Assembly (NCBI GenBank): GCA_964514585.1
Contig: CAZETU010000001.1
Span: 120,901-144,900, forward strand
Direction of reading: 5' to 3'
Length of the DNA: 24,000 bases
Origin: Candidatus Woesearchaeota archaeon
GTDB taxonomy: Archaea; Nanobdellota; Nanobdellia; Pacearchaeales; GW2011-AR1
How positions within the stretch are numbered: the first letter of the stretch is position 1; every line of letters starts with the position of its first letter. The notes under the pieces are model-generated. The model did not search any database, was not told the origin of the DNA, and worked only from the letters and a program-made list of their open reading frames with translations. The position numbers were made by a program, and so were the translations under genes. Below, piece after piece: positions 5,440-10,530 of this stretch.

Positions 5440-5444
5440 AAAAA

Positions 5445-5553
5445 TAGACAGCTCCGTGCGTTCCCATCAAAGACAGTACAGACACGAACATAACAAGCTT
5501 AACTTCTGAGTTCGGAACGGGATCAGGTGTAACCAAGTTATTATGGCCGTCTA
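5445..5553 (-). rRNA. rrf: 5S ribosomal RNA
   Basis: Minus strand TAGACGGCCATAATAACTTGGTTACACCTGATCCCGTTCCGAACTCAGAAGTTAAGC...GGGAACGCACGGAGCTGTCTA; conserved CCGAACTCAGAAGTTAAG and TAGACGGC/GCTGTCTA terminal helix. Confidence 0.93.
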
Positions 5554-5598
5554 ACATTACATCAAAATTCCATTTTATAAACTTAACGATTCAAAAAA

Positions 5599-5620
5599 TT
5601 CAACGCTCCTGACAGGACTT
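5599..5620 (-). repeat. Second copy of the tRNA-Arg 3' end (22-nt exact repeat of 5683..5704)
   Basis: ttcaacgctcctgacaggactt present at both positions, offset 84 nt. Confidence 0.85.
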
Positions 5621-5687
5621 CACTCACCAGAGGGATGTCAAATGGACGCGATCACCAGATCACCTACTGGGTGAACCTCAGGTTCAA

Positions 5688-5763
5688 CGCTCCTGACAGG
5701 ACTTGAACCTGCGACTTCTTCCTTAGGAGGGAAGCACTCTAATCCAAACTGAGCTACAGGAGC
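5688..5763 (-). tRNA. tRNA-Arg (anticodon CCT)
   Basis: GCTCCTG...CAGGAGC acceptor helix, CTTCC-CTCCTAA-GGAAG anticodon arm, GCAGG-TTCAAGT-CCTGT T arm; 76 nt. Confidence 0.93.
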
Positions 5764-5798
5764 ATAAAACAATCAACAGAAAACTCTTTTTAAAATTA

Positions 5799-5815
5799 AT
5801 GAGGGAAGGAGGATT
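5799..5815 (-). repeat. Second copy of the tRNA-Leu 3' end (17-nt exact repeat of 5898..5914)
   Basis: atgagggaaggaggatt at both positions, offset 99 nt. Confidence 0.8.
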
Positions 5816-5898
5816 AAAAGTCCTTTACGAACTTTTCAGCAAATCTTTGATTTGCGCTTCAAGCTTCTCCGAAGCGCCGGTCGTTCGAATCCGACACA

Positions 5899-5982
5899 TG
5901 AGGGAAGGAGGATTCGAACCCCCGTAAGCATAAAGCTAACAGATCTTGAGTCTGCCCCGTTTGACCACTCCGGCATTCCCTC
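5899..5982 (-). tRNA. tRNA-Leu (anticodon CAA)
   Basis: GAGGGAA...TTCCCTC acceptor, GCAGA-CTCAAGA-TCTGT anticodon arm, long variable arm TAGCTTTATGCTTAC, GGGGG-TTCGAAT-CCTCC T arm; 84 nt. Confidence 0.93.
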
Positions 5983-6115
5983 ATAATATAACTCAATAAA
6001 TTCAATATAAAAAGTTATTGATAGTTTTCATGAGAAATTATGCGGCGAAGCCCATGATTTTTTATGAAATAAAAAATAGATAATATCCGAAATTTATTTC
6101 CAGAAACTATCCCTA

Positions 6116-6166: not shown

Positions 6167-6290
6167 TCATCTATGCGCGGCCGTTGATTAGGATCGTTGC
6201 GTAGCTTAGGTTTTTGGTTGGGTATTAGGCGAGATAAAAACCTCAGCCTATCTTTCCTAAGAATGCTGATTAAGAGCCCGACAAAGCCCC

Positions 6291-7538
6291 TTAAATTGCC
6301 TTTGTGGGCGTTTTGTAGCACTTGTTATCTTCTAGTAGCCATTTCCAAACTGGCATCAGAATTATTTCCTTGCTTTCAATTTCAAATTTGTCCTCTTGAT
6401 TATGTGTTAAGATTAGCCCCTGTTTTAGCTTCAATTCATTCATTGCTTCCAGTAAGCCATTTATTTCCCTATCTCTATTTTCTTTATTAAAATCATAGCA
6501 AACCTGAATTGCTTGAATAACTTTTTCTTTCTCTTTAACTATAAAATCACATTCTTTGTCTTTTTGAAAATAAAATATTTCTTTGTATTTTTTTCTTAGA
6601 TTTAGGAATACTTCATTTTCTAGCATTTTCCCTTTATCTTTTGAAAAGGAAACTGAGTTAGCATAAGAGAGTCCATTATCTATGGAATAGACTTTTTTTG
6701 GATTAACTTGCTGTTTTTTGTAGGAGTAGCTAAATTTAGGTATTGTGAAAATTAAATAAGAATCCTCCAAGTAAGAAATATAGTCTATGATTGTTTGGAC
6801 TGATTTGACTTCTAACATTTTTTTAAGAGAGTTTGCGGAGAATTCTTTTCCAACATTACTTAATAAATAAATTGCTAATTTATTTAGTATAGCGGTATTT
6901 TTAATCCCAAACCTATTGACTATGTCTCTCATTAAAACATCTCTTAATAATTCATGCAAGAGAGTTTCGTCATCATCTTTTAAGAATTCTGGAAATCCTC
7001 CTTTGTATAAATAATCTGAATAAGATTTTTCATTTGGTTTCTGCTTGGAGAATCTTAAAAATTCAGTATAAGAAAATGGAAAGAGCTCGTAGCTTAAGTG
7101 TCTTCCAGTAAGTCTTGTCCCAAGTTCTCGGCTTAGAAGTGATGCATTTGAACCTGTTATCATTACTTTGTTTTTTCTGTCCACTAAATATCTAATGAAT
7201 TTTTCCCATTTGTCAATATTTTGAATCTCATCAAAAAAGTAAACTCCTCCAGCGCCATAAATTTCATTAAAAATTTCTTCTGCGATATTGAAATCTGTTA
7301 GCTTAAAACCTTCTAGTCTAGGGTCTTCAAGATTTAGATAATAAAAAACTTTTTGTCCTTTTAGAATTTGATTCAGAAGGGTGCTCTTTCCGCATCTTCT
7401 AATCCCTGCAACAACTAAGGCAAAGGACTTATTCAATTTTATTTCTTCAGTCTTTTCTCTAGAGATACCTTTTTCAGTTGATTCTACCCATTTTCTTTGT
7501 TCTTTTATTACTTTGGTTAGGTCTTCTTTTGTTATCAT
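6291..7538 (-). CDS. AAA ATPase with C-terminal DUF4143-like domain
   Basis: 415 aa; Walker A VVAGIRRCGKSTLL, Walker B GVYFFDEIQNI, sensor MITGSNASLLSRELGTRLTGRHLSYELFPFSYTEFL, C-terminal FYFQKDKECDFIV. Confidence 0.9.
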   Translation of the reverse strand: MITKEDLTKVIKEQRKWVESTEKGISREKTEEIKLNKSFALVVAGIRRCGKSTLLNQILKGQKVFYYLNLEDPRLEGFKLTDFNIAEEIFNEIYGAGGVYFFDEIQNIDKWEKFIRYLVDRKNKVMITGSNASLLSRELGTRLTGRHLSYELFPFSYTEFLRFSKQKPNEKSYSDYLYKGGFPEFLKDDDETLLHELLRDVLMRDIVNRFGIKNTAILNKLAIYLLSNVGKEFSANSLKKMLEVKSVQTIIDYISYLEDSYLIFTIPKFSYSYKKQQVNPKKVYSIDNGLSYANSVSFSKDKGKMLENEVFLNLRKKYKEIFYFQKDKECDFIVKEKEKVIQAIQVCYDFNKENRDREINGLLEAMNELKLKQGLILTHNQEDKFEIESKEIILMPVWKWLLEDNKCYKTPTKAI

Positions 7539-7562: not shown

Positions 7563-7618
7563 ATAAAGGTTTCTATTGGGAATGGAAACTTCTTTCTATT
7601 GGGAATGGAAACCTTTAT
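7563..7618. promoter_or_regulatory. Tandem + inverted repeat overlapping the ATPase promoter
   Basis: Two exact copies of TTTCTATTGGGAATGGAAAC (7570..7589, 7593..7612; period 23) bounded by ATAAAGGTTTC / GAAACCTTTAT. Confidence 0.6.
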
Positions 7619-7753: not shown

Positions 7754-8647
7754 CTATTTTTGGGCTTTTTTTGCTAATTTTACTAGCTTATCTAGCCTCG
7801 ATTTTACATATCTTTTGTCAACTGCATCACCATATTTTTTATATTTTTTCACCTTATTTCTATCCGTCACAACGAAAAACCACTTATCATAATTTTCCAA
7901 AACTTTCAGCTTCTCTTTCATCCTACTAATTTTAGAAAAGATGGAACCCGTTTCAATTTCAATCGCAAATCTCTTTCCACGAATTTCAAAAACAATATCC
8001 GGTTTTTTAGTCACAAATAATTCCGTTTCAATCCCATTCTTTTCTAAGAACTCAGAAATATTCTTAGTTAGAAATAGGTGAGTAAAACTTTCATTATGTC
8101 TTGGGAGCAAAAGAAAGTCTTCCATTTTCCCATTCAAGAGATTTTTATATTTTTTAATTTGATAATCATCATTCAAGAGATATTTGACTTCGTGTTTGGT
8201 TATATTTTTCTTATGAAAATATCTTTTATCTGAATCAACTTTTATATTCACACTTCTTCGATAGGTTCCAATAGGCAGAGGTTTATATGGTTCTTCATCT
8301 TCAGTCTCTTCAGAGTCTAATTCTTCATTTTTATCATCCACAGCATATTCTAAATTTACTTTCCCAATTTTCTTCTTCGGCATTTTCTTAATCCTTTCTT
8401 TTTCCTCAAGTTCCCATTTTTTATAATTTCTACGCGATTTGTAACGGAAAAATATTAAGAGGATTATTCCAAGAAAAGCAATAGAAAAAATAGTAATAAT
8501 AAAAATCGGATTAATAATGAAAGAGAATAACTTACTAGGAAATTCTTGAATGTTCTTTTTAATTTTTTGAAGTGGTTCTGCAAGAATGACTAAAAGAGCT
8601 CCTACGGATAATAAAAATGGAACTAATGCGTCGTCAGAAGTTTCAAT
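7754..8647 (-). CDS. Predicted two-TM protein with C-terminal PD-(D/E)XK nuclease-like domain; ATT start proposed (ORF track lists only 7754..8383)
   Basis: Frame is open from 8680 to the stop at 7754. Extension: (I)ETSDDALVPFLLSVGALLVILAEPLQKIKKNIQEFPSKLFSFIINPIFIITIFSIAFLGIILLIFFRYKSRRNYKKWELEEKERIKK-MPKKK.... C-terminal KPDIVFEIRGKRFAIEIETG resembles a nuclease core. AGGAGG lies 7 nt before ATT at 8647. Confidence 0.65.
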   Translation of the reverse strand: METSDDALVPFLLSVGALLVILAEPLQKIKKNIQEFPSKLFSFIINPIFIITIFSIAFLGIILLIFFRYKSRRNYKKWELEEKERIKKMPKKKIGKVNLEYAVDDKNEELDSEETEDEEPYKPLPIGTYRRSVNIKVDSDKRYFHKKNITKHEVKYLLNDDYQIKKYKNLLNGKMEDFLLLPRHNESFTHLFLTKNISEFLEKNGIETELFVTKKPDIVFEIRGKRFAIEIETGSIFSKISRMKEKLKVLENYDKWFFVVTDRNKVKKYKKYGDAVDKRYVKSRLDKLVKLAKKAQK

Positions 8648-9825
8648 CTTATTGCCTCCTGAATATTTCCATAAACTCGATTAACATCCACCGTTATCGC
8701 AACCATCTGCCTTTTCATATTTTCAACCTGAACTTCTAGTAACTCTGACCTATTTTCTGATTTTGTAAGTCGCTTTTCTAATTCTGTTTTAGTTACATCA
8801 ATTAGTAAATCCTCTTCAGAAATTGTATCTCTCATCCCAAGCATTTCAGAATAATAATGAATCTTGTCAGATTTCTTCCATCCGAATCTGAATTTTAATG
8901 CTGATTCGGATTTGTATCTTGGCAACCAATAGCAACAACTGCAATGCCTAAAATCATACATTGTTAAATCAGAATATTTCTGGCCTGCCAAGCTTTTTTC
9001 ATCACCAAATAGTTTTTTAGCAACTCTTTTCAAATAACGATTCACGACTGGCGGACTAAATTTGAACAGATAATCTTCTGTATCTAATTCATTCTCCTTG
9101 ATGTATCTTTTAACTAATTCGGAACAAATCATCAGCTTAATCCTTCTTCCGAAAGTTTTGCTTATTTCATCCCGAATGTTCAACTCCTTAAAATCCTTAG
9201 ACAAATCAGAAACTTTCACATTCATTAATTCAGTTGGAGACCTAATTCCTGTATCAAATAAAAACATCACAATCGTCTTATATTTTGGGTTGCAGTTTTC
9301 GGAGAATAATTTTATTTGCTCTTCATTTAAATAAACCCATTTGGGTTTCTCTCTAGAAGTATCTAAGTAAGTTGTAATATCTTCAACCTCTTTTCCCGCC
9401 TTCCTTGCGACTTTTTGATACCAGTGCCAGAATGCCTTAAACATCTTGACAAAGTCTCGTGTCGCCTTATATTCGCGCCCGTCCTGCCGTCTTATCACTC
9501 CCTTTCTCATATCAACAAAGAATTGGCAGAGTTGTTGCTCTGTCAATTTAGTCAAGTCATCAACATCTAAAACTTCTTTAAATTTTCTAGTCAGAAAAGT
9601 TAGTCTGAGCCTAATCGTATTAAGTCTTATAAAACTTCTAGCACCTTTTTTCGAAGATAAGGAAGTGTTGATTCCAAGTTCCATATCAATCAAGTATTGT
9701 AGAATTATTGACGAGTTAGCTCTGGAGAGGTCAGGAATGCCCCCTGCTTCCTTGACTCTATTTTTCCAACGGGTCAGCGACCCTTCGTGGTTATAAGGAT
9801 CAATCTTCATGGTGTCAGTGTCCAC
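8623..9825 (-). CDS. Tyrosine recombinase / integrase (GTG start)
   Basis: 400 aa; catalytic-type DTGIRSPTELMNVKVSDL, DFRHCSCCYWLP, FGWKKSDKIHYYSEMLG; SAM-like N-terminal domain, C-terminal coiled-coil extension. Confidence 0.88.
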   Translation of the reverse strand: MDTDTMKIDPYNHEGSLTRWKNRVKEAGGIPDLSRANSSIILQYLIDMELGINTSLSSKKGARSFIRLNTIRLRLTFLTRKFKEVLDVDDLTKLTEQQLCQFFVDMRKGVIRRQDGREYKATRDFVKMFKAFWHWYQKVARKAGKEVEDITTYLDTSREKPKWVYLNEEQIKLFSENCNPKYKTIVMFLFDTGIRSPTELMNVKVSDLSKDFKELNIRDEISKTFGRRIKLMICSELVKRYIKENELDTEDYLFKFSPPVVNRYLKRVAKKLFGDEKSLAGQKYSDLTMYDFRHCSCCYWLPRYKSESALKFRFGWKKSDKIHYYSEMLGMRDTISEEDLLIDVTKTELEKRLTKSENRSELLEVQVENMKRQMVAITVDVNRVYGNIQEAIRLKLLTTH

Positions 9826-9967
9826 ATGGACGCGTTATTTAATAATTGTCGAGAACGAAAGAATATAATAGACTGGACAGGACATCTGCTAATTCTTGTT
9901 TTTTTCTGTTTCATTTAGTTTATTTCTAAACAAAAAGTAGTCCCACCAAGATGCCAAAAAGGTAGAA

Positions 9968-10079
9968 TGCGCGGGCGGGGACTCGAACCCCGGTCATTTG
10001 GTCTCTTCATTGAAGGCAATAGATATTCCATCAACTAAACATTTGGAAGCCAAATATTCTGCCACTAAACTACCCACGC
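9968..10079 (-). tRNA. tRNA-Gly (anticodon TCC) with a 41-nt intron (10003..10043)
   Basis: GCGTGGG...CCCGCGC acceptor, TTTGG-CTTCCA|intron|A-CCAAA anticodon arm, CGGGG-TTCGAGT-CCCCG T arm. CTTC/GAAG helix with 3-nt bulges (CAA, AGA) gives a bulge-helix-bulge at position 37/38. Confidence 0.9.
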
Positions 10080-10105
10080 ACAAAATAATCATCTAATTCA
10101 AGGTT

Positions 10106-10438
10106 TTAAAGTTTATTGTTTTTGAAATGTTTTTTCCGATGACAGTTGGAACAAAGGGCCTCACACTTATCTAATTCAGACTTTATTCTTTCGATAGAAA
10201 ATCCATCAGCAACCATTTTAGAAATACCCTCTTCTTTCTTTCCAGTTTTATGATGAAAATCAATAGTAGCAGGATGATCTTCTCCACACAAACAACATCG
10301 CAAAGAGGATTTATGTTTCCGAAACCACGCCCGAATTTCATTTTTACGCTTCTTAACATGGGCCTTTTCTGAAGCTTTATTATTCGCATACCACCTACGC
10401 CTACAATCCCTTCTTTTTTCTAAATCCCTGTATGGCAT
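10106..10438 (-). CDS. HNH endonuclease-like protein
   Basis: RCCLCGEDHPATIDFHHKTGKK...CEALCSNCHRKKHFK: CxxC...DFHH...CxNCHRxxH. Confidence 0.8.
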   Translation of the reverse strand: MPYRDLEKRRDCRRRWYANNKASEKAHVKKRKNEIRAWFRKHKSSLRCCLCGEDHPATIDFHHKTGKKEEGISKMVADGFSIERIKSELDKCEALCSNCHRKKHFKNNKL

Positions 10439-10530
10439 AAAAAATTAAGGATACCAAACTTTATAATAGTTTGGATTCCCTATCCCCCCTCAACAATTAA
10501 CTTTAAAACTAAACATTTTCTAACTATATT

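What the first reader, a model, noticed from the sequence alone, without database searches (positions are those of the whole stretch)
8384..8647. Hidden N-terminal membrane domain on the nuclease-like ORF, with a probable ATT start overlapping the integrase stop
The track annotates a 209-aa soluble protein (7754..8383). Reading the minus frame codon by codon, no stop occurs between 8383 and the TAA at 8683..8681. The extra 88 codons encode two hydrophobic segments (ALVPFLLSVGALLVILAEPL and LFSFIINPIFIITIFSIAFLGIILLIFF) followed by a basic juxtamembrane stretch. There is no ATG, GTG or TTG in the open stretch, but a perfect AGGAGG (8660..8655) lies 7 nt upstream of ATT at 8647. A 25-nt overlap with the integrase would imply translational coupling. 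The result is a membrane-anchored PD-(D/E)XK-like protein expressed with a recombinase, an unusual architecture and an unusual start codon.
Basis: partly seen in the sequence, partly recalled or inferred. Interest (0 to 1): 0.75.

Follow-up and report, generated by a model that had tools for sequence, protein, structure and literature searches.

The report
ATT-started membrane nuclease beside integrase
The annotated 209-residue "soluble" protein is really a 297-residue membrane-anchored nuclease whose gene starts at a conserved, rare ATT codon inside the end of the neighbouring integrase gene, on a small mobile element of DPANN archaea.

Summary
The minus frame is open for 99 codons upstream of ATG 8383 with no ATG, GTG or TTG. 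AGGAGG (8660..8655) lies 7 nt before ATT 8647, which sits 25 nt inside the integrase ORF.

About 45 homologues of 280-312 aa carry the same two-helix N-terminus. In one set of loci (class B) the protein starts with GTG or ATG at exactly the codon aligned to the ATT. Eight distinct sequences from separate assemblies (class A) all keep AGGAGG, 7 nt, then ATT. In these the transmembrane region is under purifying selection (dN/dS 0.12-0.36, dS up to more than 1). The ATT is therefore not a sequencing error or a dead start. It is very probably the real initiation codon, although no protein or ribosome data exist.

The C-terminal domain folds as a PD-(D/E)XK nuclease with an E...D...ExE active site like that of BamHI. 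The same domain ends the VirB3-VirB4-like ATPases of DPANN type IV secretion clusters. The integrase-nuclease pair sits directly 3' of tRNA genes as a compact integrative element.

The biochemical role is inferred, not shown. The best guess is DNA processing at the membrane for transfer of the element.

The parts
7754..8647 (-). Full-length CDS: 297 codons from ATT 8647 to AAA 7757, then stop TAG 7756..7754. It replaces the annotated 209-aa ORF 7754..8383.
   Evidence: Translation. Full-length homologues cover 95-100% of it.
8645..8647 (-). ATT, the proposed initiation codon.
   Evidence: It aligns with the GTG/ATG start of class-B homologues and is invariant in 8 distinct class-A sequences. 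It lies within the integrase-frame codons AGA|TTG.
8655..8660 (-). Shine-Dalgarno motif AGGAGG, 7 nt upstream of ATT, embedded in integrase codons CAG GAG GCA.
   Evidence: Invariant in all class-A loci although the flanks diverge. Of the 12 AGGAGG in the window, it is the only one placed before a start.
8623..8647 (-). 25-nt dual-coding overlap between the integrase 3' end (..RLKLLTTH*) and the nuclease 5' end (I/M-ETSDDAL).
   Evidence: The overlap is 25 nt in every class-A locus and 11 nt in class B.
8579..8629 (-). TM helix 1 (residues 7-23, ALVPFLLSVGALLVILA).
   Evidence: Kyte-Doolittle scan. AF2 helix 5-45 with pLDDT about 90.
8531..8578 (-). Conserved loop or amphipathic segment EPLQKIKKNIQEFPSK (residues 24-39), the best-conserved part of the N-terminal region.
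   Evidence: Alignment A1 consensus AEPLQKIEKxIQEFPxKL.
8447..8530 (-). TM helix 2 (residues 40-67).
   Evidence: Hydropathy scan and AF2 helix 47-88.
8384..8446 (-). Basic juxtamembrane stretch RYKSRRNYKKWELEEKERIKK (residues 68-88). By the positive-inside rule it places the C-terminal domain in the cytoplasm.
   Evidence: Sequence and conservation. The topology is inferred.
8264..8383 (-). Variable acidic linker, predicted disordered. It begins with the internal ATG 8383 that the gene caller used.
   Evidence: pLDDT below 50 for residues 97-120. The ATG is not conserved: TTG, TTA or other residues elsewhere.
7757..8263 (-). C-terminal domain: a small beta-alpha-beta-hairpin subdomain followed by a PD-(D/E)XK core. 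Catalytic candidates are E186 (8092..8090), D217 (7999..7997), E230 (7960..7958) and E232 (7954..7952).
   Evidence: AF2 model with pLDDT 90.1 and pTM 0.86. Foldseek hits to Hjc, OkrAI/BamHI, XisH, EndA, Cdn1, AF1548 and RecU. The four residues are invariant or nearly invariant.
8623..9825 (-). Tyrosine-recombinase-type integrase. The ORF as listed starts at GTG 9825. The real start is probably ATG 9810 (MKIDPYNH..), matching homologues.
   Evidence: phrog_1 integrase 7.8e-17. NCBIfam XerA 1.5e-11, below its cutoff. It lies upstream of the nuclease in every full-length locus.
9968..10079 (-). Intron-containing tRNA (probably Gly-UCC), whose 3' end abuts the element. It is the likely integration target.
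   Evidence: Rfam tRNA 55.3 bits. Other copies follow tRNA-Gly(GCC) or tRNA-Glu(TTC).
6291..7538 (-). Variable cargo gene of the element: AAA_14/DUF4143 ATPase, matching the PADLOC candidate defence family PDC-S01.
   Evidence: Pfam hits 2.6e-36 and 1.2e-22. PADLOC 3.9e-113. Present in only some copies of the element.
6174..6323 (-). Conserved non-coding block of about 110 nt at the distal end of the element (6196..6323, with hairpin GCCCACAAAG..CTTTGTCGGGC). A 7-nt repeat of the tRNA 3' end, CCGCGCA at 6180..6174, is a candidate attR.
   Evidence: 88-91% identity in L024-29, L034 and L044, separated from the cassette by different cargo. In L040 a 12-nt repeat of the tRNA-Glu 3' end lies 4.7 kb downstream.

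Best explanation
The gene at 7754..8647 (-) encodes a 297-residue protein. It has a short acidic N-terminus, a two-helix membrane hairpin, a basic juxtamembrane stretch, a disordered acidic linker, and a cytoplasmic C-terminal domain. That domain combines a small DNA-binding-like subdomain with a PD-(D/E)XK nuclease core whose active site reads E...D...ExE, as in BamHI.

**Translation.** It starts at AUU 8647. A perfect AGGAGG motif 7 nt upstream, buried in the last codons of the integrase gene, recruits the ribosome on a shared integrase-nuclease mRNA. A canonical start would need G at the third position. That would turn a conserved integrase Leu codon (TTG) into Trp. The overlap, and perhaps a benefit of keeping nuclease levels low, therefore hold the start at ATT.

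**Element.** The integrase-nuclease pair is the conserved core, about 2.4 kb, of a small element integrated at the 3' end of a tRNA gene. Here it is a tRNA-Gly containing an intron, and the cargo is a defence-candidate ATPase.

**Function (inferred).** The nuclease domain is the same one that ends the VirB3-VirB4-like ATPases of DPANN type IV secretion clusters. The membrane hairpin places it at the inner face of the membrane. There it most likely cuts or nicks element DNA for transfer, acting as a relaxase analogue.

**Shown:** the ORF, the homologues, the conservation of ATT and the SD motif, the selection on the TM region, the fold, the synteny and the fusions.
**Inferred:** actual initiation at AUU, the topology, nuclease activity and the biological role.
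For: **ORF and homologues**
- Open frame and absence of canonical starts.
- Full-length homologues start with M/V-ET(N/D/E)D exactly where the window has I-ETSDD.

**ATT and SD conservation**
- Start-codon survey of 33 loci. Eight distinct class-A sequences have AGGAGG, 7 nt, then ATT. Class B has GTG or ATG at the same codon.
- L002 is a separate assembly, about 4% diverged, with the same ATT.
- The integrase codons AGA|TTG that contain the ATT never vary. Elsewhere only 2 of 41 amino-acid-conserved Leu columns and 8 of 27 Arg columns keep one codon in all six full loci.
- L107 carries a window-like TM sequence behind a GTG start.
- The internal Met89 is not conserved.

**Selection**
- dN/dS is 0.12-0.36 over codons 10-88 among class-A loci, with dS up to more than 1.

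**Translation signals in this genome**
- SD-like motifs precede operon-internal genes here, while first genes look leaderless.

**Fold and family**
- AF2 models: pLDDT 86.8 (full length) and 90.1 (C-domain).
- Foldseek matches are PD-(D/E)XK proteins with probabilities 0.95-1.0.
- PADLOC REase_II matches residues 215-241 at 2.5e-4.
- CoiA_nuc gives a weak hit in 43 of 69 members.
- E186, H190, D217, E230 and E232 are invariant or nearly invariant.

**Context**
- The integrase lies upstream in all full-length loci, with fixed overlaps of 25 or 11 nt.
- Copies sit directly 3' of different tRNAs.
- The domain ends PrgI-VirB4 ATPases next to T4SS pilin genes.
- MOBC relaxases are BamHI-like enzymes with a DEE motif (PMC6736028, citing Francia 2013).
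Against: - There is no protein-level or ribosome-level evidence for initiation at AUU. In E. coli ATT works at only about 0.3% of ATG (Hecht 2017, as cited in PMC10666635), and nothing is known for DPANN archaea.
- Conservation of the junction is partly confounded by the overlapping integrase frame.
- Foldseek E-values are modest (1e-3 to 0.1, TM-scores 0.3-0.49). No significant sequence match exists to any solved structure or Pfam family.
- The canonical Lys of the (D/E)xK motif is replaced by Glu.
- The functional role rests on domain associations only. Only a 7-nt candidate attR was found in the window.
- The window's own internal ATG could also yield a soluble 209-aa isoform.
Confidence: 0.8

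Rival explanations
1. The start codon was lost. The upstream TM region is a decaying remnant, and the real product in this lineage is the soluble 209-aa protein made from ATG 8383.
For: - No canonical start occurs in 99 codons.
- The window and L002 do have an ATG at codon 89.
- Standalone C-domain proteins of about 165-180 aa exist after integrases, so a TM-less form can be functional.
Against: - Eight distinct class-A sequences have diverged to dS of about 1 or more, yet keep the frame open with no stop or indel and show dN/dS 0.12-0.36 in the TM region.
- ATT and AGGAGG are invariant.
- Codon 89 is TTG, TTA, Ser, Phe, Lys and so on in the other class-A loci, so those loci have no start at that position.
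Confidence: 0.07
2. ATT is a sequencing or assembly error for ATG.
For: It would be a single-base difference in an AT-rich metagenomic assembly.
Against: The same ATT is present in 8 distinct sequences from different samples and assemblers (ENA, JGI, NCBI MAGs), each with its own nearby substitutions.
Confidence: 0.01
3. The membrane-nuclease is made as a C-terminal extension of the integrase by a programmed -1 ribosomal frameshift in the overlap, not by independent initiation.
For: - The nuclease frame is -1 relative to the integrase frame.
- The overlap is conserved at 25 nt.
- Chimeric integrase-N-terminus::VirB4::nuclease ORFs exist (P0063, L097, P0144).
Against: - There is no X XXY YYZ slippery heptamer in the overlap.
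- In L004 and L043 a nuclease-frame stop lies only 4-5 codons before the ATT, which leaves about 37 nt for a shift.
- There is no significant RNA structure (z = +0.56).
- Class-B genes start independently at the same codon.
Confidence: 0.03
4. The gene model is the same, but the role differs. The membrane-tethered nuclease is either a defence or exclusion factor that cuts incoming foreign DNA at the membrane, or an excision-controlling or junction-resolving partner of the integrase (like XisH or Hjc). In neither case is it a transfer nuclease.
For: - The structural neighbours include XisH, the fdxN-element excision controlling factor, and Hjc and RecU resolvases.
- The element carries a defence-candidate ATPase.
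- The linkage to the integrase is strict.
- There are weak SieB and holin-like hits to the TM region.
Against: - A resolvase or directionality factor has no obvious need for a membrane anchor.
- The dominant architecture of the domain is the C-terminus of VirB3-VirB4 ATPases in T4SS pilin clusters.
- The closest sequence family is the competence nuclease CoiA. Both points indicate DNA translocation.
Confidence: 0.3

Closest known systems
AUU-initiated bacterial genes (infC is the textbook case; my own knowledge) and the non-canonical ATT start discussed for overlapping gene pairs (PMC10666635)
   Same: A conserved ATT lies at the position of the start codon, preceded by a good SD motif. Standard gene callers miss it. 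The weak start probably keeps the product scarce.
   Different: The host is archaeal (DPANN) and the gene belongs to a mobile element. The ATT lies 25 nt inside the upstream gene and is constrained by that gene's Leu codon. No autoregulatory logic like the IF3 case is evident, and there is no experimental proof.
PD-(D/E)XK (restriction-endonuclease-like) nucleases with a BamHI/OkrAI-type D...ExE site, and the MOBC relaxases (pAD1 TraX, DEE motif; PMC6736028)
   Same: The alpha-beta-beta-beta-alpha-beta core is predicted. An acidic quartet, E186/D217/E230/E232, sits at the canonical positions. The domain is associated with type IV secretion and conjugation genes.
   Different: There is no significant sequence similarity to BamHI, OkrAI or any MOBC profile. 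The protein has a two-TM anchor or is fused to VirB4. No oriT, and no catalytic Tyr equivalent to TraX Y181, has been identified.
CoiA competence protein, nuclease-like domain (Pfam PF06054)
   Same: It is the most consistent, though weak, sequence match: 43 of 69 members, best E 2.4e-4. It is also the only tblastn hit in plasmids. Both are PD-(D/E)XK domains linked to DNA transfer across the membrane.
   Different: All hits fall below Pfam's gathering score and cover only the first ~57 of 158 profile positions. CoiA is soluble, with other N-terminal domains, and is bacterial.
VirB3-VirB4 (PrgI-VirB4) fusion ATPases of monoderm and archaeal MPF_FATA-type T4SS
   Same: The window's C-terminal domain is the terminal domain of such ATPases, about 970-1085 aa long, in DPANN loci next to VirB2/TrbC-like pilins.
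   Different: The window protein has no ATPase. Its TM hairpin is not detectably homologous to the PrgI/VirB3 segment. Bacterial VirB4 proteins are not known to carry a nuclease domain (my knowledge; no paper found).
Integrative and mobilizable elements (IMEs): integrase plus relaxase minimal elements (PMC5357655, PMC11389934)
   Same: The tRNA-targeting cassette is compact. It consists of an integrase, a single DNA-processing-type enzyme and variable cargo, and several copies occur per genome.
   Different: The host is archaeal. The putative processing enzyme is a membrane-anchored PD-(D/E)XK rather than a HUH relaxase. Mobilisation is hypothetical.

Membership tests
Gene with a non-canonical ATT (AUU) start codon | ATT occupies the codon homologous to the canonical start of orthologues | tested here: met
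   Alignment A1 and the codon survey: I(ATT)-ETSDD aligns with M/V(ATG/GTG)-ET(N/D)D.
Gene with a non-canonical ATT (AUU) start codon | No in-frame canonical start could give the conserved N-terminus | tested here: met
   No ATG, GTG or TTG occurs in the 99 codons between the upstream stop and ATG 8383.
Gene with a non-canonical ATT (AUU) start codon | Ribosome-binding site at functional spacing, conserved together with the ATT | tested here: met
   AGGAGG plus 7 nt is invariant in 8 distinct class-A sequences.
Gene with a non-canonical ATT (AUU) start codon | The region downstream of ATT is under protein-level selection | tested here: met
   dN/dS is 0.12-0.36 for codons 10-88.
Gene with a non-canonical ATT (AUU) start codon | Direct evidence of initiation (N-terminal peptide, start-site ribosome profiling, reporter) | not testable with these tools
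   No expression data are available for these uncultured archaea.
PD-(D/E)XK nuclease superfamily | alpha-beta-beta-beta-alpha-beta core fold | tested here: met
   In the AF2 C-domain model (pLDDT 90.1), the confident Foldseek neighbours (probability 0.95-1.0; a few low-probability unrelated folds also appear) are Hjc, EndA, OkrAI, XisH, AF1548, RecU and VRR-NUC. E-values are modest, 1e-3 to 0.1.
PD-(D/E)XK nuclease superfamily | Catalytic motif D...(D/E)xK | tested here: inconclusive
   P-D217 and E230-I-E232 are invariant or nearly invariant, but the Lys position holds Glu. BamHI and MOBC enzymes show the same DEE variant (PMC6736028). No superposition of side chains was possible.
PD-(D/E)XK nuclease superfamily | Metal-dependent nuclease activity | not testable with these tools
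   This needs biochemistry.
CoiA nuclease-like domain (PF06054) | Score above Pfam's gathering threshold (20.3 bits) | tested here: not met
   The window protein scores 14.4 bits, E 0.043. 43 of 69 relatives hit weakly, best E 2.4e-4. This is a remote relative at most, not a member.
MOBC relaxases (TraX / CloDF13 MobC type) | Sequence membership, a cognate oriT, and a catalytic Tyr | not tested
   No MOBC profile or sequence was available in the tools. Only the shared DEE motif and BamHI-like fold can be noted (PMC6736028).
Two-pass membrane protein | Two hydrophobic helices long enough to span the membrane, with flanking charge asymmetry | tested here: met
   There are Kyte-Doolittle 19-residue windows scoring at least 1.8 at both segments and AF2 helices 5-45 and 47-88. 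An R/K-rich stretch follows TM2. No dedicated TM predictor was available.
Tyrosine recombinase / integrase (upstream gene) | Match to integrase profiles | tested here: met
   phrog_1 integrase 7.8e-17. NCBIfam XerA 1.5e-11, below its cutoff. A relative has a weak PF00589 hit. Pfam itself gave no hit for the window protein.
tRNA-integrating element | Integrase adjacent to a tRNA 3' end, with a direct repeat of the tRNA end at the far boundary | tested here: inconclusive
   The tRNA abuts the cassette here and in other loci, with three different tRNAs. The window has only a 7-nt repeat, CCGCGCA. L040 has a 12-nt repeat. No empty site was found.

The most novel reading that the evidence does not exclude
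The integrase plus AUU-initiated membrane-nuclease cassette is an archaeal counterpart of an integrative mobilizable element. Its nuclease is a BamHI/MOBC-like DEE enzyme, derived from the C-terminal domain of DPANN VirB3-VirB4 ATPases. It would be the long-missing DNA-processing, relaxase-like activity of archaeal type IV secretion-mediated DNA transfer. The weak AUU start, locked in by the overlap with the integrase gene, would be a conserved device that sets a low nuclease:integrase ratio.
Probability: 0.2. Interest if true: 0.8.

Novelty: new variant of a known kind. Interest (0 to 1): 0.62.

Why it matters
1. **Annotation.** A whole clade of DPANN mobile-element genes is truncated or mis-started by gene callers that allow only ATG, GTG and TTG. 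Examples are P0018 (209 aa), P0028 (232 aa) and P0023, which was started inside TM1. The truncation hides a membrane anchor and changes the predicted localisation of the protein.
2. **Translation.** A non-canonical AUU start that is conserved across deep divergence, paired with a perfect SD motif, is a clean comparative case in archaea, where such starts are poorly documented. The class-A and class-B junctions form a natural experiment: a strong SD with a weak codon against no SD with GTG and a short overlap.
3. **Mobile elements.** The nuclease domain links tRNA-integrating mini-elements to VirB4-nuclease fusion ATPases of DPANN type IV secretion clusters. This gives a testable candidate for the DNA-processing step of archaeal conjugation-like transfer, for which no relaxase is known.

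Tried and rejected
- **No sequence match to known structures or records.** Sequence-profile searches of PDB with the full-length and C-domain alignments found nothing meaningful. NCBIfam gave no hit for the nuclease. tblastn found nothing in phages and only a marginal CoiA hit in plasmids.
- **attR.** A search for an attR as a long repeat of the tRNA 3' end (15-24 nt, up to 3 mismatches) found none in the window. Only a 7-mer remained.
- **RNA structure at the junction.** None was significant (z = +0.56). A local SD/codon-3-4 hairpin is not conserved in L043, so SD sequestration was dropped as a coupling mechanism.
- **Frameshift fusion.** Rejected, because there is no slippery site and nearby stops exist in relatives.
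- **Palindrome at 7563..7618.** The 20-nt palindromic repeat was tested as a general cassette-boundary site. It occurs only in loci with the same ATPase cargo, so it belongs to the cargo gene.
- **TM hairpin origin.** Homology of the window's TM hairpin to the PrgI/VirB3 N-terminus of the large fusions was tested by phmmer. None was found.
- **Internal start.** Codon 89 was tested as a conserved internal start. It is not conserved.
Full report
**1. The observation**

On the minus strand the frame of the annotated 209-aa ORF (7754..8383) stays open upstream to TAA 8683..8681. None of the 99 intervening codons is ATG, GTG or TTG. ATT lies at 8647..8645 and AGGAGG at 8660..8655, with a 7-nt spacer. 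The upstream integrase-like ORF ends at 8623, so the overlap is 25 nt.

From base composition, the chance of no stop in 99 codons is about 3e-4. Among the window's 27 ORFs of at least 100 aa, the next-longest open stretch before a first canonical start is 15 codons.

The extension encodes two hydrophobic segments, residues 7-23 and 40-67 counted from the ATT. A strongly basic stretch follows.

**2. Is the extension a real part of the protein?**

A search with the 297-aa translation found 104 relatives. About 45 of them are 280-312 aa long and cover 95-100% of the query, including both hydrophobic segments.

In the alignment, these homologues begin M-E-T-(N/D/E)-D or V-E-T-D-D exactly where the window reads I-E-T-S-D-D. 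The Met that the gene caller used (codon 89) is Leu, Ser, Phe, Lys or Pro in the relatives. At DNA level it is TTG in four loci, TTA in two, and ATG only in the window and L002.

A library-wide profile search found 664 cluster representatives of the C-terminal domain. Of the 86 listed representatives that are 200-400 aa long, 51 have one or two N-terminal TM segments behind a short acidic N-terminus. The two-helix anchor is therefore a family trait, not an oddity of this window.

**3. Is ATT the start?**

I collected 107 loci and read the codon aligned to the start in the 33 loci that have the N-terminal region. They fall into two junction types.

| | Class A | Class B |
|---|---|---|
| Loci | window, L002, L024/25, L026/27, L038, L004/39, L041/47, L043 | L001 and its duplicates, L003/33, L030/45, L031/32, L034-37, L046, L058, L107 (L048/49 also have ATG but no integrase upstream) |
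| Junction | AGGAGG-c(a/t)ataag-ATT-GAA | GTG or ATG at the same codon |
| AGGAGG present | yes | no |
| Overlap with integrase | 25 nt | 11 nt |
| Integrase tail | ..EAIRLKLL(T/K)T(H/C/Y)* | ..IPCGN* |

Class A comprises eight distinct sequences from ENA, JGI and NCBI assemblies. They have diverged strongly:
- N-terminal protein identity is 52-94%.
- dS over codons 10-88 is 0.13 to more than 1.
- dN/dS there is 0.12-0.36, and the frame never breaks.

The ATT sits inside the integrase codons AGA|TTG. Synonymous drift of those codons (AGG, CTG, TTA) would destroy it, yet none is seen. Elsewhere in the same genes, only 2 of 41 amino-acid-conserved Leu columns and 8 of 27 Arg columns keep a single codon in all six full loci. 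This argues for nucleotide-level selection on ATT itself. AGGAGG is equally invariant.

L002 is an independent short contig, 95.6% identical to the window, with the same ATT. This rules out a base-calling error.

L107 (P0001) is a natural recombinant. It combines a class-B junction and a GTG start with a TM-coding sequence almost identical to the window's.

Any canonical start in class A needs G at 8645, which would change the integrase Leu (TTG) to Trp (TGG). The overlap thus gives a simple reason why ATT persists.

In this genome, first genes look leaderless and have upstream TATA-like A/T boxes. Operon-internal genes carry GGAG-type motifs. An SD-driven internal start therefore fits local usage.

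The literature reports the following:
- ATT is a weak but usable start, about 0.3% of ATG in E. coli (Hecht 2017, cited in PMC10666635).
- About 30% of putative alternative initiation sites in Haloferax mapped to near-cognate codons. The authors set these aside without further analysis (PMC7261190).

No direct evidence exists for DPANN archaea.

**4. What the protein is**

AlphaFold2 with a 69-sequence alignment gave a mean pLDDT of 86.8. The model contains:
- two long helices (5-45 and 47-88) forming a hairpin;
- a disordered acidic linker (97-120);
- a compact C-terminal domain.

The C-domain modelled alone gave pLDDT 90.1 and pTM 0.86.

The confident Foldseek matches against PDB are restriction-endonuclease-fold proteins. 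They are Cdn1/Can2 nuclease domains, Bax1, archaeal splicing endonuclease, XisH, OkrAI and BamHI, Hjc, AF1548, SPO1766, RecU and VRR-NUC. Probabilities are 0.95-1.0 but E-values are only 1e-3 to 0.1.

Invariant or nearly invariant residues sit at the canonical catalytic positions:
- E186 in helix alpha-1 (N-E-S-x-x-H);
- P-D217 at the start of beta-2;
- E230-I-E232 in beta-3.

The usual Lys is replaced by Glu. BamHI has the same arrangement (my knowledge). So do the MOBC conjugative relaxases, which are described as BamHI-like with a DEE motif (PMC6736028).

At sequence level the family is orphan:
- There is no Pfam, NCBIfam or PDB match.
- PADLOC REase_II gives a weak hit over residues 215-241.
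- CoiA_nuc gives a consistent sub-threshold hit in 43 of 69 members.

By the positive-inside rule, the R/K-rich stretch after TM2 puts the nuclease in the cytoplasm. This topology is inferred.

**5. Context**

- **Integrase.** The upstream gene is an integrase: phrog_1 7.8e-17 and XerA 1.5e-11. Its true start is probably ATG 9810. It precedes the nuclease gene in every full-length locus, and also precedes some TM-less versions.
- **Extent of homology.** Between loci, DNA homology spans window positions about 9996 to 7631. A conserved block of about 110 nt follows at 6323..6196, and variable cargo lies in between.
- **Cargo.** Here it is an AAA_14/DUF4143 ATPase matching PADLOC candidate PDC-S01.
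- **tRNA.** The cassette abuts the 3' end of an intron-containing tRNA at 9968..10079, which ARAGORN missed. Other copies follow tRNA-Gly(GCC) or tRNA-Glu(TTC). Two copies can occur on one contig.
- **Far boundary.** A 12-nt repeat of the tRNA end marks it in L040. In the window only CCGCGCA recurs, at 6180..6174.

Together these features indicate a small tRNA-integrating element.

**6. Where the nuclease domain comes from**

In 60 of the loci collected, the C-domain is the end of a much larger ORF whose upstream part matches a VirB4-like ATPase in the same frame. Full-length examples run about 970-1085 aa and begin MYEIPQQLEYKEKIVFGLTF...

One example (L018) contains PrgI (VirB3-like), TraG P-loop, AAA_10 and HerA domains, and follows two T4SS pilin genes.

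Chimeras and deletion derivatives also exist. P0088 joins PrgI to the nuclease. P0063 and L097 join an integrase N-terminus to VirB4 and the nuclease.

The window's TM hairpin is not detectably related to the PrgI segment.

The common theme is a nuclease held at the cytoplasmic face of the membrane, either on the T4SS motor or on its own anchor.

**7. Mechanism proposed**

The steps that are shown are the gene structure, the conserved SD and ATT, the selection, the fold, the synteny and the fusions.

The inferred steps are as follows. The integrase and nuclease genes are co-transcribed. Ribosomes bind AGGAGG within the integrase 3' end and initiate inefficiently at AUU. The 25-nt overlap is longer than the range in which termination-reinitiation is efficient, so coupling is at most partial (PMC10666635). 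The product inserts as a helical hairpin with the nuclease in the cytoplasm. There it cuts or nicks element DNA for export through a T4SS encoded elsewhere, analogous to the integrase-plus-relaxase IMEs of bacteria.

Alternative roles, namely exclusion or defence at the membrane or XisH-like control of excision, cannot be excluded.

**8. Verdict**

Non-canonical starts and PD-(D/E)XK nucleases are both known kinds. Three things appear undescribed, as far as two literature searches and the Pfam, NCBIfam, PHROG and PADLOC libraries show:
- a deeply conserved archaeal ATT start locked into an integrase overlap;
- the membrane-anchored form of this orphan nuclease family;
- its link to VirB4-nuclease fusions in DPANN T4SS clusters.

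I rate it a new variant of a known kind, with interest 0.62.

Noticed in passing
window 9968..10079 (-): An intron-containing tRNA (Rfam 55.3 bits, 112 nt; anticodon loop CUUCCAA, probably Gly-UCC) that ARAGORN did not report. The integrase-nuclease cassette starts right after its 3' end.
   Followed up: partly
window 6196..6323 (-); L024 4726-4840, L026 5894-5983, L028 3611-3697, L034 ~6345-6459: A block of about 110 nt is conserved at 88-91% identity at the distal side of the variable cargo. That is better conserved than the coding genes of the element. It contains an invariant 10-bp hairpin, GCCCACAAAG..CTTTGTCGGGC, with no covariation. In the window it overlaps the last codons of the ATPase (..KCYKTPTKAI*). 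In L026 and L028 the same sequence starts with ATG as a tiny ORF. It could be an att arm, a terminator or a small RNA.
   Followed up: partly
window 6291..7538 (-): The cargo gene is an AAA_14/DUF4143 ATPase with a very strong match to the PADLOC candidate defence family PDC-S01 (3.9e-113). It is 100% identical in L001 although the adjacent integrase is only 82% identical.
   Followed up: partly
window 7754..9996 vs L001: The window and L001 share the same chromosomal context: the ATPase is 100% identical and the nuclease C-domain 99%. The integrase is only 82% identical and the nuclease N-terminus 81%, and the junction types differ (ATT against GTG). A recombination breakpoint therefore lies inside the nuclease gene. 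L107 shows a second breakpoint right after the start codon. The junction modules are being swapped between copies.
   Followed up: partly
window 7563..7618: A 20-nt unit, TTTCTATTGGGAATGGAAAC, is repeated in tandem (7570-7589 and 7593-7612) and forms a 26-nt imperfect palindrome just upstream of the ATPase start. It is found only in loci that carry the same ATPase (L001, L036), so it is probably that gene's operator or promoter region.
   Followed up: partly
window 5443..5554, 5687..5764, 5898..5983 (-): A 5S rRNA, tRNA-Arg(CCT) and tRNA-Leu(CAA) cluster lies just beyond the element. Short exact repeats flank the tRNAs: a 22-nt repeat at 5599/5683 and a 17-nt repeat at 5799/5898. These may be partial tRNA duplications of the kind left by integration events.
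   Followed up: no
L018 1030..6510; also L006, L009, L011, L051, L077 and others: DPANN (Nanoarchaeota, Pacearchaeota, Woesearchaeota) loci encode a PrgI/VirB3-VirB4 ATPase with a C-terminal PD-(D/E)XK domain, directly after VirB2/TrbC-like pilin genes. In L018 an MFS transporter gene and then a reverse-transcriptase gene lie downstream. My literature search found no description of the nuclease fusion.
   Followed up: partly
L097 (1061-aa ORF), P0063, P0113, P0132, P0144: Some ORFs begin with the integrase N-terminus (MKIDPYKHKE..) and continue into VirB4 and/or the nuclease domain. These are either chimeric genes from deletions between neighbouring genes or real fusion proteins.
   Followed up: no
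L007 (Babeliales MAG) and L023 (Cloacimonadota MAG): VirB4-nuclease genes typical of DPANN archaea appear on contigs binned into bacterial MAGs. This could be mis-binning or transfer between domains.
   Followed up: no
window 10106..10438 (-): A 110-aa Cys-rich ORF with a weak HNH-endonuclease match (E 0.004) lies between the tRNA and secF. It is flanked by an 18-nt inverted repeat (10103-10120 and 10492-10509, 94% complementary).
   Followed up: no
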